From a virus, in UHGV virus genome UHGV-1356089: a stretch of DNA of 39,456 nt. One strand, 5' to 3'. Of this stretch, positions 1 to 35,875 are shown piece after piece. Position 1 is the stretch's first letter; each line of letters starts with the position of its first letter. A program made the translations under genes and the position numbers. A model generated the notes under the pieces. The model worked only from the letters and a program-made list of their open reading frames with translations. It was not told the DNA's origin and did no database searches.

Positions 1-855
1 TCAAAACTTCAGTCCTATCGTGATGAGCTTGTTCGCAATGCTGGTCCTGATGGTCCGGTAAATCTGGATTTGAAGCAATTAAGCGATCTGCGCAGCCAGT
101 TCAGAATGGATGTGAAGGGTGAGCGACCAGTGTTACCAAACCGTTCCGATGCTGCCATTCAGCGCGTTTACAAGGCAATGACCGACGATATCAATGGTGC
201 CATTGGTCAGAATCTTGGCAACGATACTCTCCGTAAATATCAGCAGGCCAATGCCGTCTACGCTGACGAAGCGGCGAAACTAAAGAATACCATGCTGAAG
301 AATGTTCTCATGAAAGGCGACCTGACGCCGGAAGTTGTCAACAACATGCTATTCAGCAAGAACAAATCGGAAATTAAGACGCTGTATAACTCAGTTGGTC
401 GTGTTGGCAGGGCGCAAATGCGCAATGGCATCATTGGAAAGGCGATGGAGAAATCAGGTGGTTCCCCTGATCAGTTCCTTCGACAGCTTAACATCCTGCA
501 AAACCAGACTGGCATCACATTTAAGGGGCAGGACGCTGCTTATCTGAAAGGATTGAAAAACTACCTGCAATCCACGCAGCAGGCTGCAAAAGCGGCAGTA
601 ACAACACCAACAGGGCAGCAAACCATCCCGTTCATTATCGGGTATGGGACAGCAATGAACCCGGCGACAACTGGCGCAGCGGTAAGCTACGGACTTCTTA
701 CTCGCGCCTATGAGAGCGAACCATTCAGAAATGCAATGCTCCGAATGGCAAACACACCACGCGGATCGACAGCGTTTGAGAAAGCCATGCAGCAAGCGCA
801 AAAAGCGATTAATGCACTGACGCAGGGTGCTAAGTCTGATTCGTTGTCAGAATAG
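1..855 (+). CDS. DNA ejection/injection protein, gp16-like, 3' part (5' end lies beyond the window start; in frame with 38314..39456 if the molecule is circular)
   Basis: Frame 1 is open from base 1 to the stop at 853-855; sits where P22-like phages place the last ejection protein, before the tailspike region; the ORF at the right edge is in the same phase. Confidence 0.55.
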   Translation, partial: SKLQSYRDELVRNAGPDGPVNLDLKQLSDLRSQFRMDVKGERPVLPNRSDAAIQRVYKAMTDDINGAIGQNLGNDTLRKYQQANAVYADEAAKLKNTMLKNVLMKGDLTPEVVNNMLFSKNKSEIKTLYNSVGRVGRAQMRNGIIGKAMEKSGGSPDQFLRQLNILQNQTGITFKGQDAAYLKGLKNYLQSTQQAAKAAVTTPTGQQTIPFIIGYGTAMNPATTGAAVSYGLLTRAYESEPFRNAMLRMANTPRGSTAFEKAMQQAQKAINALTQGAKSDSLSE

Positions 856-945: not shown

Positions 946-1431
946 TTATCTGATGTTACTGCTACTGTTGCATGTTACCGCGTTTCCAAATCCTGAATTG
1001 CAGTTTGTATATGTGTCAACGCGTGTTGGGTAAGGTTGAGTTATAACAGGCTGGCGCGCTTTTTGCTCGATCGCTTGCATTGTGTTTACAGCCTGATAAT
1101 TCAATAAAGCCTGCTGGAATGCTTGGCTTTGTGCTATTTGTTGGGCTTGTTCTTGGCTTTGTAATTGAACATAAAGATTCTGAAGCTCAAGTCTTGCCTG
1201 TGCGTCACTTATCTTGCCTTCATCGACACCTTGCCCGAGCATCTTTGCAGCAAGGACATACAGCTTAGGTGTTGGTGCTGATGCCATGCGTGAGTCGTTC
1301 TTCACACTGGCATCAAGGCAATTAGCCATATCGCTAAGCTTTTGATAGCGTTGTTCGCAACTTGCTTGATAGTCACTTACTTTTGCGCACCCAGCCAGCA
1401 GAAGCGGGATAATTAACAGTGATTTTTTCAT
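946..1431 (-). CDS. Predicted lipoprotein (signal peptide with lipobox LLAGC, Q-rich body); accessory gene
   Basis: N-terminus MKKSLLIIPLLLAGC when started at the ATG at 1431; AAGGAGAG RBS about 8 nt upstream; ORF-track ORF 946..1482 trimmed to this start. Confidence 0.6.
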   Translation of the reverse strand: MKKSLLIIPLLLAGCAKVSDYQASCEQRYQKLSDMANCLDASVKNDSRMASAPTPKLYVLAAKMLGQGVDEGKISDAQARLELQNLYVQLQSQEQAQQIAQSQAFQQALLNYQAVNTMQAIEQKARQPVITQPYPTRVDTYTNCNSGFGNAVTCNSSSNIR

Positions 1432-1465
1432 ATAATTAACTCTCCTTAGTTTTGCGCAGGATACC

Positions 1466-1831
1466 ATGAAAAAAGTTAACATTGGAAACGTACCAAAGAT
1501 GCTCGTACCGCTCTTTGAGAGCGGTACGGTTGTGTTTTGCAGAGACTTTCCAGAATGGCAACGCCTGCATCAAAAACTTGGCGTGGACGTGCAGGACTCG
1601 GATGCCAACGGAGCGTCTCATACAATGAGCAGCGAGAATGGTGTTTTGCATGTGATAGGTGTGTTCAATGGCAAACTATCTACTATTGCCCATGAGTGCG
1701 CTCACATGGCATTCGATATCTGCTCAAGGGTAGGTGTTGATGTTGAACCAGGAAGAGCCAACGAGACTTACTGCTACTTAATGAGCAGGCTTGTTGAGTT
1801 CTGCGAGAGACATATCAAAAAGCCGGAGTGA
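1466..1831 (+). CDS. Hypothetical protein with HExxH motif (possible small zinc metallopeptidase-like protein)
   Basis: 121-aa ORF with AGGA 5 nt upstream of the ATG; HECAH at residues 76-80 (nt 1691-1705); no competing long ORF on the minus strand. Confidence 0.45.
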   Translation: MKKVNIGNVPKMLVPLFESGTVVFCRDFPEWQRLHQKLGVDVQDSDANGASHTMSSENGVLHVIGVFNGKLSTIAHECAHMAFDICSRVGVDVEPGRANETYCYLMSRLVEFCERHIKKPE

Positions 1832-2520: not shown

Positions 2521-4995
2521 ATGACAGACATTACAGCCAATGTTGTAGTGAGTATGCCTTCGCAACTCTTCACTATGGCGCGTTCTTTTAAAGCCGTAGC
2601 CAATGGCAAAATTTATATCGGTAAAATTGACACTGACCCGGTAAATCCTGAAAACCAGATTCAGGTTTATGTAGAGAACGAAGACGGTTCTCACGTTCCT
2701 GTTTCGCAACCAATCATCATTAACGCTGCTGGTTATCCGGTATATAACGGACAGATTGCCAAATTCGTAACTGAGCAAGGCCATTCTATGGCTGTTTATG
2801 ATGCGTATGGTGCACAGCAGTTCAAATTCCCAAATGTGCTGAAGTATGACCCCGATCAGCTACGGCAGCAATTAGAAGATCCAGATGGCGCTAAAAAATA
2901 TCCTGAGTTGCAGATAGCACGATGGAGAGATTGTGGAGATGTTAGAGGTTGGGGAGCAAAAATAGATGGGGTAACAGATGATTCAGATGCTTTTATTAAA
3001 GCTTTAAACTCTGGAAGGTCGGTTATAACAATTCCTGAAGGAATATGCATCATCAAGAAGAATATTAACATTCCTGAAGGGTGTTCACTGGTTGGATCTG
3101 GCATTGATTATTGGGATACATATAGACCAGCGCCTGAAAGATTATTAAAAAGTTGGAGTAAAGGAACCCATCTTGTATTTACTGGTGATGGAGAAAAAAA
3201 CAAATATTTTTTTAACATCTCTAATGAAAGACCGGTTAAAATTGTTGAAGGGATATCTTGTAAGTTCACTGAGTTTACGAATGAAGATTCTGTAGGTGTT
3301 ACTCCTGCTACACCAAAAGCCATGAGCGTAGCTGTTAGTATCAACAGGGCATCACAGTTACGCAATCTGAGAATAATGGTAAGTAAAAATGGTATTGAAG
3401 GATACAATAACCCTGATTCTTATTCATTGGGTGATAACTGGGATATAGGGTTGCATGTATACGATAGCTGTGATTCAGTTATTGATAACGTACAGATTGT
3501 CGGCTATTGGAGGGTAAAAGGACTACTACTGACAGAAAATGACGGGAGCCTTTCAATGAAGGGAAATCCTGAAAAAACGCACTTTAATAACGTTTATGTA
3601 CAGTCAGGAATCGCGATAAGGAATAGCCCTCAGATTGATCTTGTAAGTAATACTGAAAGCTCAGTGACATTTAAACATAAAAAGTCGATGAGAATAACTT
3701 CAGTTAAACAGTTTAAAATTGCTGGCAGTGAATCAGTATATACGTATTCAGATGCATCATTTGATGGAACTAATATCACACTATCTGGTATTTCTCCTGA
3801 AATACAAGGTTCAATAAGTGTAATCAGGTTTCCGTCAATTGGTAATAATTTTAGTGGGACTGTTTTTGAGAATACAGTAGCCACTACTCTTGATCATACA
3901 TCAGGTAAGCCATCAGAATACTTTGGCCTTCCTGCATCCTTTGCATTAGAGATTGATGGTTTCCCTGTTCGTAATTTAAGGCTTGATAAATTCAAAGCTC
4001 AAACTACCTTTGATAAAGGAAATTGCATTTTTGGTGATTGCCGTGATGTTAAAATCACATCATCTGAGTTTGAAAATGGAATTATGATTGCGTATAACCT
4101 GACCGAGACTCATGGTTATACAGGAAATCTTAGATTTTTTGCTTCTGATCTTCAGAGCAGCGTTAACACAAGCGAGTTTAAACCAAGAGACGCATTTGTA
4201 GACAATAGACAAATAAAAACGGAGTTTACTGATGGTTCTTTCATTATAAAGAACTGGAGGCCTACAGATACAAAAATACAATGGTCGTCTGGAGTGGATG
4301 CTATTGTTCTTAGAGAGTCACCTGACGAACAATCAAACGGAAATATTTACGGGTATCACATTGATGGTAAAAGATGGATTAATGTTAGTGGATATAACAA
4401 AGATATAAATATTTCATCAAGAAACTTAAGCGTAAAAAACCATAGTGATGACTCCGCAGTTATTAATATATTCGGCGACTCTGGAAATATTGCCATTAAA
4501 GGTAATTTTTCACCAATTGTTGATAACAGCAAATCTCTTGGTGCACCATCATTTAGATGGGCTCAGATTTATTCTGCATCTGGGACTATAAGCACATCAG
4601 ATGAAACACTTAAAACAATATATGACATTACTCAGGCAGAGCGTGATGCTGCGCTGGAAATAAAGGGAATTATATGCAAGTTCAGGTTTAATGAGTCGAT
4701 TAATTTTAAAGGATTGGAGTTATCAAGGTATCATTTTGGAGTTGGCGCTCAAACCGTAGGGGATATTCTTAGAAAGCATGGTTTAAACCCTGAGCAATAT
4801 GCTTTTTGGTGTTACGATGAATGGCCAGACGTATGGGATGAAGAGGTGATAACTGAAGAGAGCACAGATCCTGATACAGGTGAGAAAATTTATTCTCAAT
4901 ATAAAACAGGAAATATGATTCTTGTAAAAAAAGCAGGTGGACGCTACGGAATTCGTTATGACGAATTGGCTATGTTTATATTAATGGCAATGTAG
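2521..4995 (+). CDS. Tailspike: P22-type N-terminal head-binding domain, central probable glycan depolymerase, C-terminal self-cleaving chaperone domain
   Basis: N-terminal ~110 aa match the P22 gp9 head-binding domain; the C-terminus has an [10 protein letters not shown]... segment like the self-cleaving chaperone domains of endosialidases and K5 lyase. Confidence 0.85.
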
Positions 4996-13226: not shown

Positions 13227-13808
13227 ATGAACAACTCATGGTGGCAGGAACTAATGCATTTTTTCCTGCAAGGAATGACACTTAAACAGTTGATTCATAT
13301 GCTAATCATCCTGATCATATTGATTATTGTTATGCCGGTAAGCGTAAAAGAATGGATAAACCTGCATAATCCAGAAATCCTTCCTCATTATTGGATGTAT
13401 TACATCCTGTTGTTCTGCGTTAGCTATGTGCTTAACGGTGTTGTTAATTCCGCTTATCACGCTGTGACTGAAAGAATTGAGGTATCCGCTGCTCAGAAGC
13501 GCAAATCTAAAGAAGAAAAATATGTGCAAGATTTGTTTGATTCGTTAACTCTTGGAGAAAGAGCGTATTTGGCATTCGCTGTAGCCGCGAATAACCAGCT
13601 AAAGACAGAAAAGGGAAGCCCTGAAGCAATCTCATTGCTCGAAAAAGGGCTTCTTATTCGGATACCTTCTGCTACTGGATATCCTGAAATCGACCGTTTT
13701 GTTATCCCGGAACGCTATAGAAATGAGTGCTACATTAGGTTTGCTGGGAAGAAAGACAGTCTTATGGATGAACTTATCGCTCAGGATAAGCATGGCAAAA
13801 ACAAGTAA
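13227..13808 (+). CDS. sieB: SieB-like superinfection exclusion protein
   Basis: 193 aa with hydrophobic N-terminal segments; on the strand opposite the pL operon between ral and the N-like gene, the position of sieB in P22 and lambda. Confidence 0.65.
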   Translation: MNNSWWQELMHFFLQGMTLKQLIHMLIILIILIIVMPVSVKEWINLHNPEILPHYWMYYILLFCVSYVLNGVVNSAYHAVTERIEVSAAQKRKSKEEKYVQDLFDSLTLGERAYLAFAVAANNQLKTEKGSPEAISLLEKGLLIRIPSATGYPEIDRFVIPERYRNECYIRFAGKKDSLMDELIAQDKHGKNK

Positions 13809-13823
13809 TTAGCAAATGATTTA

Positions 13824-14096
13824 TCATCTCGCCGTCAGTTGTTTTGATTTCCTGTAGCCTGCCGCGTAAATGGCTACGTTTGGCAGGCAAACACTTCCAC
13901 TGCATTCATCAACTTTCTTGCAGCGAAGACTTCCGAGTGATGCTGCTTTGTCTGCTCTGACGCAACCAGAGAGCTTTAGCGCAATTTTTCGCGCCAGTCG
14001 CTGCTCTTGCATCGCCTGTTCACGTTGAGCCTGTCTGCGTGCTCTGCGGCGATTTCTGGCGTTATCGTCAGCCAGATATGTAATGACTACTGTCAT
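13824..14096 (-). CDS. N-type antiterminator, P22 gp24-like
   Basis: Arginine-rich NRRRARRQAQ near the N-terminus; C-terminus LPNVAIYAAGYRKSKQLTAR matches P22 gp24; ORF-track ORF trimmed to the ATG at 14096 with GGAGG RBS. Confidence 0.8.
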   Translation of the reverse strand: MTVVITYLADDNARNRRRARRQAQREQAMQEQRLARKIALKLSGCVRADKAASLGSLRCKKVDECSGSVCLPNVAIYAAGYRKSKQLTAR

Positions 14097-14170: not shown

Positions 14171-14407
14171 AGAAAGAGCATCTCGCCACCTAATAGGTCG
14201 ATGCTCGGATCGAGAGATTTAATTAACCTCGGTTTTGAAGTTATGCATTCACATAAATCCTCCTGTTGCATGTGCAGCATTGGCTGTGTTTGGCGGCTGC
14301 ATTTCGCCTATGGAATTGACTTTGGCGGTGACGCGCCGGGTGCTTATCTTCCGGTTGCCGTCGTGCAGCTGCACTTCACGTCACCCCAAAGCCAACTACT
14401 CTTTGGT

Positions 14408-14449: not shown

Positions 14450-14496
14450 TGCCAATCTGTTCCGTTTGGCTACCAGCGTCCTGCTGATGGTTAAAG

Positions 14497-14590
14497 AATA
14501 CTGTAGGTATTTTATTTTGTAAATACTCAAGGTATTTATTTTGGTGAAATAATGATAAGCAAATGAATACAAAGGATATTTATTTTTTCG
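14497..14590. promoter_or_regulatory. OL operator cluster (three AATAC-N5-GTATT-type sites)
   Basis: AATACTGTAGGTATT (14497-14511), AATACTCAAGGTATT (14522-14536), AATACAAAGGATATT (14576-14590); same motif as the sites between cI and cro. Confidence 0.55.
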
Positions 14591-14666
14591 GCGTCTGCTT
14601 GTTCAGTGCTTTTTATGCGGGATATGTGAAGTGGATCCCGATAGCTATTGCTGCCGGGATTATGGG

Positions 14667-15056
14667 TTAGTCAGCGAAGGTTAAGACGAGAATTACCTTA
14701 ATGATGTCTGCTACAACAGACACGGCCATAGATAAACCAAAGACGATCCAAGCCATAGAGATGTCTTCACTACCATCGTATAGAGTTCCGTAATCACTGG
14801 TATAAGGCGTAAATGTCGCGCCTTGATACAATAGGTATAAGCTTGATCCATAGAGGATAAATGCAGATATCCCTTGTATTGCTATGATCACCAGAATCAT
14901 GAAACGAGCTGATCTATGCGCCCAAGCCTGGCTTATTTTTTCTGATAGAGATTTCGCAAGAAAAGCATGCGCTAAGCCGTAAATTGTCGAGATTGCCAAC
15001 ATCCCAAAAAAGCTTGCTATAGCGGTTCCAACCATAAGCGCCCCTTGCGTGATCAA
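14667..15056 (-). CDS. Predicted multi-pass membrane protein translationally coupled to cI (rex-position accessory gene)
   Basis: 129 aa with 3-4 hydrophobic segments; its ATG overlaps the cI stop (ATGA); lies between cI and OL. Confidence 0.7.
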   Translation of the reverse strand: MITQGALMVGTAIASFFGMLAISTIYGLAHAFLAKSLSEKISQAWAHRSARFMILVIIAIQGISAFILYGSSLYLLYQGATFTPYTSDYGTLYDGSEDISMAWIVFGLSMAVSVVADIIKVILVLTFAD

Positions 15057-15769
15057 ACCAGCCTTAGTTTTGTCTCAATTGCAACGCCTATAATCTTGCA
15101 GTTTCCATTGATTGGCACGAGAGGCCATGCAGGATTAAGTCCCTTGAGGTATTTATTTCCGCCGTCGATTATCAGCTTCTTGAATGTTGCTTCGTTAGAG
15201 TCAGAAAGTTTTGCTATGACCAAGCTGCCGTTGACCGCCTCCCTTCCGGTATCGAAAAGAACGAATGTTCCCTCTGGAATGCTTAACCCAACCGGTGCCG
15301 TCATTGAATCACCTTCCACTTTAAGCCAGAACGCATTACCTTGAATATGCGCGTCAGACTCAAGCCAAACATCTATGTCTTTAATGGTGTATGGTTCGCA
15401 TGCTTCACACCACGAGCCAGCCTGGATACTGCTTAACACCGGATACCTCTTTCCTGCTCTGTATTCCCCTGCATACCTTACGTTGGCATCGCTCTTAAGG
15501 CTTTCTGCCTGTTCTGCAACCTTGGCAGCAATTGACTGGCTAAAATCAGCAATTGAGACTTGCAACAACCGTGCAAAACCAGATGCAACCTCAACGTTTA
15601 GCGCGTTTCTGCCATTAAGATAATGCCCTACCGCTCCTTGGGTGATACCCAGTTCATCAGCGATTGAGTATTGGGTTATTCCCAATTCTTTCTTTTTTGA
15701 CTCATACAAAGCCTTAAGCCGCTTAGCGTCTTCGAGCTGTTCTGTCGTCAGTGATTTTTTATTTTCCAT
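15053..15769 (-). CDS. cI: CI-type prophage repressor (HTH plus LexA-like S24 autocleavage domain)
   Basis: 238 aa; HTH ITQYSIADELGITQGAVGHYLNG; Ala-Gly at RYAGEY; GDSM serine and downstream lysine motifs of S24 peptidases. Confidence 0.9.
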   Translation of the reverse strand: MENKKSLTTEQLEDAKRLKALYESKKKELGITQYSIADELGITQGAVGHYLNGRNALNVEVASGFARLLQVSIADFSQSIAAKVAEQAESLKSDANVRYAGEYRAGKRYPVLSSIQAGSWCEACEPYTIKDIDVWLESDAHIQGNAFWLKVEGDSMTAPVGLSIPEGTFVLFDTGREAVNGSLVIAKLSDSNEATFKKLIIDGGNKYLKGLNPAWPLVPINGNCKIIGVAIETKLRLV

Positions 15770-15780
15770 AGCTTAATTCT

Positions 15781-15845
15781 AATAGCTAAGGTACTTAAAC
15801 TAAAAATACCCTGAGTATTGATTGATTTGAATACCTGTAGTATTC
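15781..15845. promoter_or_regulatory. OR operator cluster (three sites) with divergent pRM/pR
   Basis: AATAGCTAAGGTACT (15781-15795), AATACCCTGAGTATT (15805-15819), GAATACCTGTAGTATTC (15829-15845); centres about 24-25 bp apart. Confidence 0.65.
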
Positions 15846-34922: not shown

Positions 34923-35875
34923 TGGCTGATTCGAATCTCAATGAGCCGGTAATCATTCAGACTACACGACTCGACACATCAGTCCTTCCACGCAATATCT
35001 TCTCGCAGTCGTATCTGCTTTACGTTATCGCACAGGGCACTGATGTTGGTAACGTGGCTAACAAGGCCAACGAAGCAGGGAAGGGGGCTTATGATGCACA
35101 GGTGAAGAATGATGAGCAGGATGTCACCCTTGCAGACCATGAATCCAGAATTGAAGCTGCTGAAGCAACTCTCATCAATCATGAAAATAGAATTGCAGCA
35201 GCGGAAAGCACTCTTGCAGATCATGAAACAAGGATTACGGCTGCTGAAACAGAGCTGGCTGATCACGAGACGCGAATTGCTGCCAATGAATCTGAGTTAG
35301 CAAACCATGATGCGCGCATAACTCAGAATACAACTGATATCGACGCACTTGATACCAGGCTCACAGCGGCAGAGGGAAGTATTTCGACGCTACAAAGCAC
35401 AGTTGGTGATCACTCAACAAGAATATCTGCGCTTGAGTATGCCACCACGCGCAAGAAATCAGAGGTTGTTTACTCAGGAGTATCAGTAACCATTCCAACA
35501 GCGCCGACCAACCTTGTTAGCCTACTGAAAACGCTCACGCCGTCATCCGGCACGTTGGCACCATTCTTCGACACCGTTAACAACAAGATGGTTGTGTTCA
35601 ACGAGAACAAAACCTTGTTCTTAAAGCTGTCGATCGTCGGGACGTGGCCCAGTGGAACCGCAAACAGGTCAATGCAGCTAACCTTTTCCGGCTCTGTTCC
35701 TGACACGTTGGTCAGCAGTCGTAATGCGGCGACAACAACCGACAACATCCTGTTAGCTACGTTCTTCAGCGTGGATAAAGACGGCTTTCTTGCCACAAAT
35801 GGAAGCACGTTAACCATTCAGTCAAATGGTGCGGCGTTTACTGCCACAACCATCAAAATCATTGCGGAGCAGTGA
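34922..35875 (+). CDS. Tail needle (P22 gp26-like) with heptad-repeat coiled coil and C-terminal knob domain
   Basis: N-terminus [43 protein letters not shown]... matches gp26; repeated ADHETRI heptads; extra ~150-aa C-terminal domain as in Sf6-type needles. Confidence 0.8.
35132..35324 (+). repeat. About 4.5 tandem copies of a 42-bp unit encoding the needle coiled-coil heptads
   Basis: Consecutive 42-nt units starting GCAGACCATGAA / ATCAATCATGAA / GCAGATCATGAA / GCTGATCACGAG / GCAAACCATGAT. Confidence 0.6.

What the first reader, a model, noticed from the sequence alone, without database searches (positions are those of the whole stretch)
14667..15056. Unrecognised membrane protein translationally coupled to cI in the rex position: candidate exclusion or abortive-infection module
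Between cI and OL, where lambda carries rexA-rexB, sits one 129-aa ORF with 3-4 hydrophobic segments whose ATG overlaps the cI stop (ATGA), so it would be made with the repressor in the lysogen. I could not match it to RexB, SieB or any other family from memory. The cI-downstream slot is a known site for prophage-encoded defence genes in lambdoid phages. A single small membrane protein with no RexA-like partner would be a minimal, possibly new, membrane-acting exclusion factor.
Basis: partly seen in the sequence, partly recalled or inferred. Interest (0 to 1): 0.8.

Follow-up and report, generated by a model that had tools for sequence, protein, structure and literature searches.

The report
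Unstudied membrane gene beside phage repressor
Just after the repressor gene of this E. coli prophage sits a real, conserved gene (hkaS, listed as "unknown" since 2001) for a small three-helix inner-membrane protein that resembles nothing known; it is a reasonable but untested candidate for protecting the host from other phages.

Summary
The ORF is real but was partly misdescribed. It lies on the minus strand. The 129-aa version (14667..15056) starts at a TTG that overlaps the cI stop as TTGA, not ATGA. The conserved start is the ATG at 15035, 17 nt after the cI stop, with its own AAGGGG ribosome-binding site, giving 122 aa.

This is hkaS of phage HK620 (annotated "unknown"), HK140_049 and PHROG 6534.

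- **Selection:** dN/dS is about 0.15-0.2.
- **Linkage:** it is strictly linked to the HK620-type cI (146 of 5426 E. coli genomes carry each). It always sits between cI and OL3, inside the immunity module.
- **Family size:** the family is tiny, with one full-length 50%-identity cluster among 1.84 billion proteins.
- **Homology:** there are no hits in Pfam, NCBIfam, PADLOC or PDB. hhalign probability is below 1% against RexB, SieA and SieB.
- **Structure:** AlphaFold2 (pLDDT 92) and hydropathy give three TM helices, N-out/C-in, with only generic fold matches.

The closest cI relatives carry unrelated genes, or none, in the same slot, so this is a variable cargo site like the lambda rex site.

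Expression in the lysogen and membrane location are well supported. A role in excluding other phages is plausible but has no direct evidence. It is a good experimental candidate but not a surprise.

The parts
14667..15035 (-). hkaS coding sequence (122 aa plus TAA stop). Predicted inner-membrane protein with TM1 at residues 3-27, a cytoplasmic loop at 28-44, TM2 at 45-70, a periplasmic loop with a beta-hairpin at 71-92, and TM3 at 93-120.
15036..15056 (-). cI-hkaS junction. It holds the cI stop TGA (15055..15053), a 17-nt spacer with the Shine-Dalgarno AAGGGG (15046..15041), and the non-conserved TTG (15056..15054) that creates the 129-aa mechanical ORF.
15053..15769 (-). cI repressor of HK620 immunity type (HTH_3 + Peptidase_S24), the first cistron of the immunity operon.
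14635..14660 (-). Stable RNA hairpin 7 nt after the hkaS stop codon, a candidate 3' end or terminator of the cI-hkaS transcript. A hairpin is present at this position in all four lineages, with different sequences.
   Evidence: z-scores -2.2 to -4.1; the HK620 annotation places tIMM slightly further downstream, overlapping OL3
14497..14580 (.). OL1 (14497..14511), OL2 (14522..14536) and OL3 (14566..14580), consensus AATAYC-N4-GTATT. A pL-like promoter lies at 14523..14495 on the minus strand.
15781..15844 (.). OR3 (15781..15795), OR2 (15805..15819) and OR1 (15830..15844). Together with OL these bracket cI and hkaS as one immunity module.

Best explanation
hkaS is the second cistron of the prophage immunity operon (pRM/pRE -> cI -> hkaS -> hairpin -> OL), so it is made wherever the repressor is made, that is, in the lysogen. 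It encodes a 122-aa protein that sits almost wholly in the inner membrane. It has three TM helices with the N-terminus out and the C-terminus in. A short, positively charged, highly conserved cytoplasmic amphipathic helix links TM1 and TM2. An acidic periplasmic loop with a small beta-hairpin links TM2 and TM3. Invariant polar residues lie inside the bilayer (Q54, S65, S106, D110, K113, T119). The most likely role is that of a lysogenic-conversion ('moron') membrane protein that protects the lysogen from heteroimmune phages at the inner membrane. I favour a constitutive block of genome entry, as with P22 SieA, HK97 gp15 or T4 Imm. The protein would bind, through its conserved periplasmic loop and membrane core, an inner-membrane component that incoming phages need, or their ejection/tape-measure conduit. 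I favour this over a triggered suicide channel because there is no sensor partner and almost no soluble domain. Shown here: the gene is real, it is under selection, its operon position is fixed, it is predicted to be a membrane protein with this topology, and it has no detectable homologue. Inferred: expression from pRM, and the exclusion function and its mechanism.
For: Operon position: the gap after cI is 17 nt, hkaS has its own SD, and no promoter or terminator motif lies between the genes. The same layout holds in all diverged homologues from Salmonella, Enterobacter, Hafnia and metagenomes. A hairpin follows the stop codon in all lineages, and OL lies beyond it. Real and selected: dN/dS is 0.15-0.2 and synonymous sites are saturated together with those of cI. 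About 99% of the roughly 650 sequences in the 90%-identity clusters fall in clusters whose representative is full length. Linkage: hkaS and this cI type each occur in 146 of 5426 E. coli genomes, at 147 places. Membrane topology: three hydropathy peaks, loop1 with +4/-1 charge, loop2 with 0/-4. AF2 gives pLDDT 92.3 with three long helices and a hairpin. Variable cargo slot: lambda carries rexAB, Sf6 carries gp38 (a protein with a signal peptide), BHUENT3 carries two unrelated ORFs, and ST64T carries nothing. GC content is 42% against 46.9% for the window, similar to sieB at 40%. The periplasmic loop is nearly invariant within a lineage (1 of 22 sites variable) but differs between lineages, as expected for a specific interaction surface. 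Established knowledge: genes co-transcribed with lambdoid repressors (rexAB, HK022 nun, BTP1 bstA) are typically exclusion functions.
Against: There is no direct evidence of any phenotype. No paper in the library mentions hkaS with HK620. There is no similarity to any known exclusion or defence protein and no informative fold match. The strict linkage to cI is explained by physical trapping between cI and OL and says nothing about function. The same prophage already carries SieB (13227..13808). Truncated or frameshifted alleles exist in several genomes and in phage HF4s, so the gene is dispensable for the phage. The immunity module travels between podovirus, siphovirus and Stx-phage backgrounds, so any entry block cannot be matched to the resident phage's own virion type.
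Confidence: 0.4

Rival explanations
1. Rex-like abortive infection with a single component. HkaS oligomerises into a latent channel, with a glycine-zipper-like G3-x3-[AG]7-x3-G11 motif in TM1 and buried D110/K113/Q54. The channel opens when an infecting phage perturbs the membrane or supplies a trigger. It depolarises the cell and aborts the infection.
For: It occupies the same operon slot as lambda rexAB. It is a polytopic small membrane protein with invariant polar and charged residues in TM helices and TM1 rich in small residues. P22 SieB is a precedent for a single membrane protein that aborts infection (established knowledge; the window's SieB is identified).
Against: There is no sensor partner. 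The only cytoplasmic part is a 17-residue loop, so there is little capacity to sense phage components. It has no homology to RexB or SieB. It would be produced constitutively with cI without any evident antitoxin or gate.
Confidence: 0.15
2. Lysogeny or switch accessory factor. HkaS modulates a membrane-associated host protease or regulator (for example FtsH/HflKC, as lambda cIII does, or the way RexB has been reported to antagonise ClpXP). This would stabilise cII, cI or O and tune establishment, maintenance or induction.
For: hkaS would be transcribed from pRE during establishment as well as from pRM. Its most conserved segment is the cytoplasmic loop (9 of 17 residues invariant). It has co-diverged with cI over a long period. 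The HK620 cIII is annotated as shortened by an internal stop codon. RexA and RexB have reported roles in the lambda switch (established knowledge, not checked here).
Against: Co-divergence is expected from adjacency inside the OL-OR module. Close cI relatives manage without it: ST64T has no gene in the slot, and Sf6 and BHUENT3 carry unrelated genes. Truncated alleles persist in prophages and in a viable phage, HF4s.
Confidence: 0.1
3. Host-physiology conversion unrelated to phages. The small membrane protein alters a transporter, an envelope stress response, or sensitivity to bacteriocins or antibiotics, and so benefits the lysogen directly.
For: Many prophage morons encode small membrane proteins of this kind. 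Composition (GC 42%) and position are moron-like. The gene occurs in gut Enterobacterales of several genera. Only weak, sub-threshold transmembrane-composition hits were found, such as Cation_ATPase_C at 18.5 bits against a cut-off of 27.3.
Against: No homology supports any specific activity. Characterised genes in this particular slot are phage-exclusion functions (established knowledge).
Confidence: 0.2
4. Not a functional gene: a chance ORF or a decaying remnant carried along with cI.
For: Function is unknown, the family is tiny, and some truncated alleles exist.
Against: The ORF stays intact at 122 aa while identity falls to 50-53% and synonymous sites are saturated. dN/dS is 0.15-0.2. The SD and ATG are conserved. 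The AF2 fold is confident from only 7 sequences. 43 of 122 columns are invariant across lineages.
Confidence: 0.02

Closest known systems
Lambda RexB (with RexA), the cI-rexA-rexB immunity operon
   Same: Same genomic slot: downstream of cI, same strand, upstream of tIMM/OL, so expressed in the lysogen. Both are small polytopic inner-membrane proteins.
   Different: No sequence relationship (hhalign probability 0.7%). HkaS has 3 TM and 122 aa, against 144 aa for RexB, which is described as having four TM segments. There is no RexA-like partner. Whether HkaS forms a channel is unknown.
P22 SieA, HK97 gp15 and T4 Imm (inner-membrane superinfection-exclusion proteins that block DNA entry)
   Same: Single small inner-membrane proteins made by the resident phage, acting without a partner. 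This is the mechanism favoured here. SieA is described as an inner-membrane protein that interferes with ejection-protein function (PMC10461980).
   Different: No homology to SieA (hhalign probability 0.3%). sieA lies in the immI region after gene 16, not in the cI operon. In this window that slot holds a lipoprotein-like ORF instead. No exclusion phenotype is known for HkaS. gp15 and Imm were not compared directly.
P22/lambda SieB (PF14163)
   Same: A single membrane-associated prophage protein that causes exclusion. A SieB gene is present in this same window (13227..13808).
   Different: HkaS has no PF14163 match, and hhalign probability against the window's SieB is 0.1%. SieB is on the opposite strand, beyond N, and is not in the cI operon.
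Class I holins (such as lambda S105)
   Same: Similar size and predicted 3-TM N-out/C-in topology.
   Different: HkaS has no charged cytoplasmic C-terminal tail; it ends 2 residues after TM3. It is not in a lysis cassette, has no holin Pfam or PHROG hit, and would be expressed in the lysogen rather than late.
PHROG 6534 / HK620 HkaS / HK140_049 / WP_016063178.1
   Same: This is the family itself: 96.7-100% identical, full-length match.
   Different: None. All members are annotated 'unknown' or 'hypothetical protein'.

Membership tests
PHROG 6534 (HkaS family, function unknown) | Full-length profile match | tested here: met
   E=7.5e-79, residues 8-129 aligned to profile positions 1-122 of 122. 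96.7% aa identity to HK620 hkaS and 100% to the HK140 gene.
Lambda RexB | Sequence or profile homology to RexB | tested here: not met
   hhalign probability 0.7% over 20 columns. No Pfam, PHROG or PADLOC Rex hit.
Lambda RexB | Adjacent RexA sensor gene in the same operon | tested here: not met
   Only 17 nt separate cI and hkaS. No further ORF lies before OL that is conserved across lineages.
Lambda RexB | Located between cI and OL, co-oriented with cI | tested here: met
Lambda RexB | Ion-channel activity that depolarises the cell when triggered | not testable with these tools
   Needs membrane-potential assays.
SieB (PF14163) | Pfam SieB domain | tested here: not met
   No hit for HkaS, whereas the window's own SieB scores 1.4e-25. 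hhalign probability 0.1%.
P22 SieA | Homology to a SieA type | tested here: not met
   hhalign probability 0.3% against P22 SieA. [quoted passage not shown]
P22 SieA | Blocks DNA delivery by incoming phage | not testable with these tools
   Needs plating and DNA-entry assays.
Class I holin | Three TM segments, N-out/C-in | tested here: inconclusive
   Predicted from hydropathy and the positive-inside rule only and from AF2 helices. No experimental topology.
Class I holin | Charged cytoplasmic C-terminal domain and position in the lysis cassette beside the endolysin | tested here: not met
   The protein ends ...LVLTFAD, 2 residues after TM3. The gene lies in the immunity operon. No holin family hit.
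Catalogued anti-phage defence systems (PADLOC-DB v2) | Match to any defence-protein model | tested here: not met
   0 families at E<=10.

The most novel reading that the evidence does not exclude
HkaS founds a new family of sensor-less, single-gene, three-helix inner-membrane phage-exclusion factors. The family is confined to the HK620-type immunity module of enterobacterial lambdoid prophages and is unrelated in sequence and fold to RexB, SieA, SieB, Imm and all catalogued defence proteins. Its lineage-specific periplasmic loop would set target specificity.
Probability: 0.35. Interest if true: 0.55.

Novelty: new member of a known kind. Interest (0 to 1): 0.4.

Why it matters
About 2.7% of complete E. 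coli genomes carry this gene (146 of 5426), including O111:H8 strain TW05614. Stx2c-converting phages and phages whose listed host is an EHEC strain also carry it. It would be expressed whenever the prophage is silent, yet its function is unknown 25 years after it was first annotated. If it excludes other phages it would add a minimal, easily transferable membrane defence module. It would also affect phage therapy and typing of strains that carry HK620-immunity prophages. The model phages HK620, HK140, HK630 and mEpX2 all carry it, so the question is cheap to answer. If it does not exclude phages, it is still a clean case of cargo trapped inside an immunity module.

Tried and rejected
- **Family scans.** Pfam, NCBIfam and PADLOC gave only sub-threshold transmembrane-composition noise: Cation_ATPase_C at 18.5 bits against a cut-off of 27.3, and TssN.
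- **Exhaustive profile search.** A profile HMM search of 1.84 billion representatives found only the family itself plus a 44-aa fragment, so there are no distant relatives to borrow a function from.
- **Direct comparisons.** hhalign against lambda RexB, P22 SieA and the window's SieB gave probabilities below 1% in every case.
- **Literature.** 'hkaS' alone matched only a fungal herbarium acronym. 'hkaS' with 'HK620' matched no papers. Papers on HK620 and exclusion, and on mEpX2, contain nothing on this gene. The svsR sRNA paper concerns an icd-integrated prophage and was not linked to this locus.
- **Overlapping TTG start.** Rejected as the real start. It is not conserved, and the Salmonella type has an in-frame stop before its ATG.
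- **Convergent 35-aa ORF.** The hydrophobic ORF at 14563..14670 (+) was considered as a partner or toxin gene and rejected. It is absent from two of the four lineages.

Full report
**What is in the sequence.** The ORF listing gives a 129-aa minus-strand ORF at 14667..15056 that starts with TTG. Reading the minus strand, cI ends ...CTG GTT TGA (stop at 15055..15053), and the TTG at 15056..15054 overlaps that stop as TTGA. There is no ATGA. The first ATG is at 15035, 17 nt after the cI stop. It is preceded by AAGGGG (15046..15041) and a 5-nt spacer. PHROG 6534 aligns to residues 8-129 as profile positions 1-122. HK620 (hkaS, 369 nt), HK140 (HK140_049) and RefSeq (WP_016063178.1) all annotate the 122-aa form. 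In diverged homologues the gap after cI is 17-20 nt, an AAGGA motif is conserved, and the Salmonella type has an in-frame TAA immediately before its ATG. The gene is therefore 14667..15035, 122 aa. The two genes are adjacent and must share a transcript, but they do not overlap.

**Context.** The window is a P22-like mosaic prophage. The segment 14190..15800 is 100% identical to phage HK140 and 98.5% to HK620. The local gene order matches a prophage of E. coli ECE170. The order on the minus strand is OR3-OR1 (15781..15844), cI (15769..15053), hkaS (15035..14667), a hairpin (14660..14635), OL3-OL1 (14580..14497) with a pL-like promoter (14523..14495), nutL, then N (14096..13824). sieB lies on the plus strand at 13227..13808. 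No promoter-like or terminator-like motif lies between cI and hkaS. The geometry matches lambda cI-rexA-rexB-OL, and the HK620 annotators placed a tIMM terminator after hkaS. Expression from pRM and pRE together with cI is therefore a strong inference, not a measurement.

**It is a real gene under selection.**
- A search of 5.8 billion clustered proteins found 12 clusters at 53-98% identity.
- A profile search that read all 1.84 billion 50%-identity representatives found one full-length representative and one fragment. The family is closed and very small.
- Members come from E. coli, Salmonella enterica, Enterobacter and Hafnia, and every one is named 'hypothetical'.
- All 12 diverged loci retrieved place the gene directly after an HTH_3 + Peptidase_S24 repressor and before operators and an antiterminator gene (N_peptide or N36 family, unassigned in L005).
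- Synonymous sites are saturated for both cI and hkaS in the deep comparisons. Where it can be measured, hkaS dN/dS is 0.15-0.20. Its dN is about 4 times that of cI (0.34-0.40 against about 0.08).
- 43 of 122 columns are invariant across lineages.
- In 5426 complete E. coli genomes, hkaS and this cI type each occur in 146 genomes at 147 places.

Because hkaS lies between cI and OL, and both OL and OR must match the repressor, this linkage is explained by physical trapping inside the immunity module. It does not by itself imply a functional tie to cI.

The same module occurs in a podovirus (HK620), in phages with other virion modules (HK140, HK630, mEpX2) and in Stx2c phages. A few decayed alleles exist: frameshifted N-termini, 111-aa and 77-aa forms, the last of these in viable phage HF4s. 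About 99% of the roughly 650 sequences in the 90%-identity clusters fall in clusters whose representative is full length.

**The protein.** Hydropathy shows three peaks: residues 3-27 (Kyte-Doolittle about 1.6), 45-70 (2.3) and 93-120 (2.3). Loop 28-44 carries +4/-1 charge and loop 71-92 carries 0/-4. By the positive-inside rule the N-terminus is periplasmic and the C-terminus cytoplasmic. AlphaFold2 with only 7 sequences gives pLDDT 92.3 and pTM 0.79. It predicts helices at 2-29, 31-38, 41-73 and 89-121, and a small beta-hairpin in loop 2. Invariant polar residues sit within the TM helices: Q54, S65, S106, D110, K113 and T119. TM1 is rich in small residues (G3, A5, S8, G11, S16).

Across lineages the cytoplasmic loop is the most conserved segment (9 of 17 invariant) and the periplasmic loop the least (4 of 22). 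Among the E. coli-type alleles, however, the periplasmic loop is the least variable segment (1 of 22 variable sites). That pattern fits a specific, lineage-dependent interaction surface. It is not proof of one.

**The slot is a variable cargo site.** The closest cI relatives in the phage collection carry different genes between cI and OL:
- Enterobacter phage BHUENT3 (cI 66% identical) has a 127-aa Cys-rich ORF and a 109-aa ORF with a C-terminal hydrophobic segment.
- Sf6 (53% identical) has gene 38, a 134-aa protein with a signal peptide.
- ST64T has nothing in the slot.
- Lambda has rexA-rexB.

All of the non-lambda cargo genes fall in PHROGs of unknown function. hkaS has 42% GC against 46.9% for the window, close to sieB at 40%.

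**Interpretation.** Shown or strongly supported (about 0.85): hkaS is a genuine gene, co-transcribed with cI, that encodes a small polytopic inner-membrane protein of an otherwise unknown family. Inferred (about 0.4): it excludes other phages at the membrane.

I favour a constitutive entry block (SieA, gp15 or Imm-like) over a Rex-like triggered channel. There is no partner gene, only about 17 cytoplasmic residues are available for sensing, and the protein is made continuously without an evident gate. The rivals are:
- a single-component abortive channel (0.15);
- a lysogeny or switch accessory acting on membrane proteases (0.1);
- a host-physiology conversion unrelated to phages (0.2);
- not a functional gene (0.02, effectively refuted).

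None of the functional readings can be separated computationally with these tools.

**Literature.** No paper in the searchable library mentions hkaS together with HK620. Papers on HK620 exclusion concern P22 SieA and the HK620 ejection proteins (PMC10461980). The lambdoid co-transfer study treats the immunity operon only in general terms (PMC9836094).

**Verdict.** The gene is already catalogued as a hypothetical protein. If it proves to be an exclusion factor, it would be a new sequence family of a known kind, the lysogen-expressed membrane exclusion proteins. Interest is moderate: it is a cheap and well-defined experimental target in model phages, and a cargo gene after cI would not surprise a specialist.

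Noticed in passing
window 946..1482 (-): Lipoprotein-like ORF. From M18 it reads MKKSLLIIPLLLAGC, which contains a lipobox. It belongs to PHROG 6067 (unknown function). It lies immediately after the gene-16/DNA-transfer homologue (70..855), the slot where P22 carries sieA. It may be a surface exclusion lipoprotein (Cor/Llp-like), but this is untested.
   Followed up: partly
window 14563..14670 (+): 35-aa hydrophobic ORF (MNTKDIYFFGVCLFSAFYAGYVKWIPIAIAAGIMG) convergent with hkaS. Its ATG lies inside OL3 and its end overlaps the hkaS stop. It is kept in HK620, a 36-aa analogue exists in the Hafnia-type locus L008, and it is absent from the Salmonella-type L003 and from L007. Its conserved 3' part coincides with the post-hkaS hairpin, so it is probably not a gene.
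   Followed up: yes
window 14190..14315 and ORF 14249..14374 (-): A segment of about 125 bp between nutL and N carries most of a 41-aa ORF (annotated HK140_048). Among the listed full-length matches it is present only in this window and HK140. It is missing from HK620, mEpX2, HK630 and the Stx2c phages, whose matches begin at query position 126 or later; CUS-3 shows a partial 90% match from position 28.
   Followed up: no
window 14866..14880 (+), inside hkaS: An operator-like sequence, GATATCCCTTGTATT, with 1 mismatch to the AATAYC-N4-GTATT consensus. It is one of only two such sites outside OL and OR (the other is at 35327). It is probably chance, and its conservation was not checked.
   Followed up: no
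L015 2408..2812 (Sf6 gene 38); L014 2470..2853 and 2857..3186 (phage BHUENT3); L016 (ST64T): The cI-to-OL slot carries unrelated genes of unknown function in the nearest cI relatives: a secreted or lipoprotein-like protein in Sf6, two ORFs in BHUENT3, and nothing in ST64T. The slot is a general cargo site whose contents are mostly uncharacterised.
   Followed up: partly
hkaS alleles P0004-P0009, P0025, P0045-P0055; phage HF4s (H71): Decay or variant alleles occur in several E. coli genomes: frameshifted N-termini, in-frame deletions in loop 1, 111-aa forms that start at M12, 77-aa forms (including viable phage HF4s), and one 140-aa read-through form. The gene is dispensable for phage viability.
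   Followed up: partly
cI 15053..15769 compared with hkaS 14667..15035 across E. coli genomes: Among the 146 E. coli genomes, cI is at least 99% identical to the window in 141, while hkaS is only 95-99% identical in 142. The cargo gene accumulates differences about three times faster than the adjacent repressor.
   Followed up: partly
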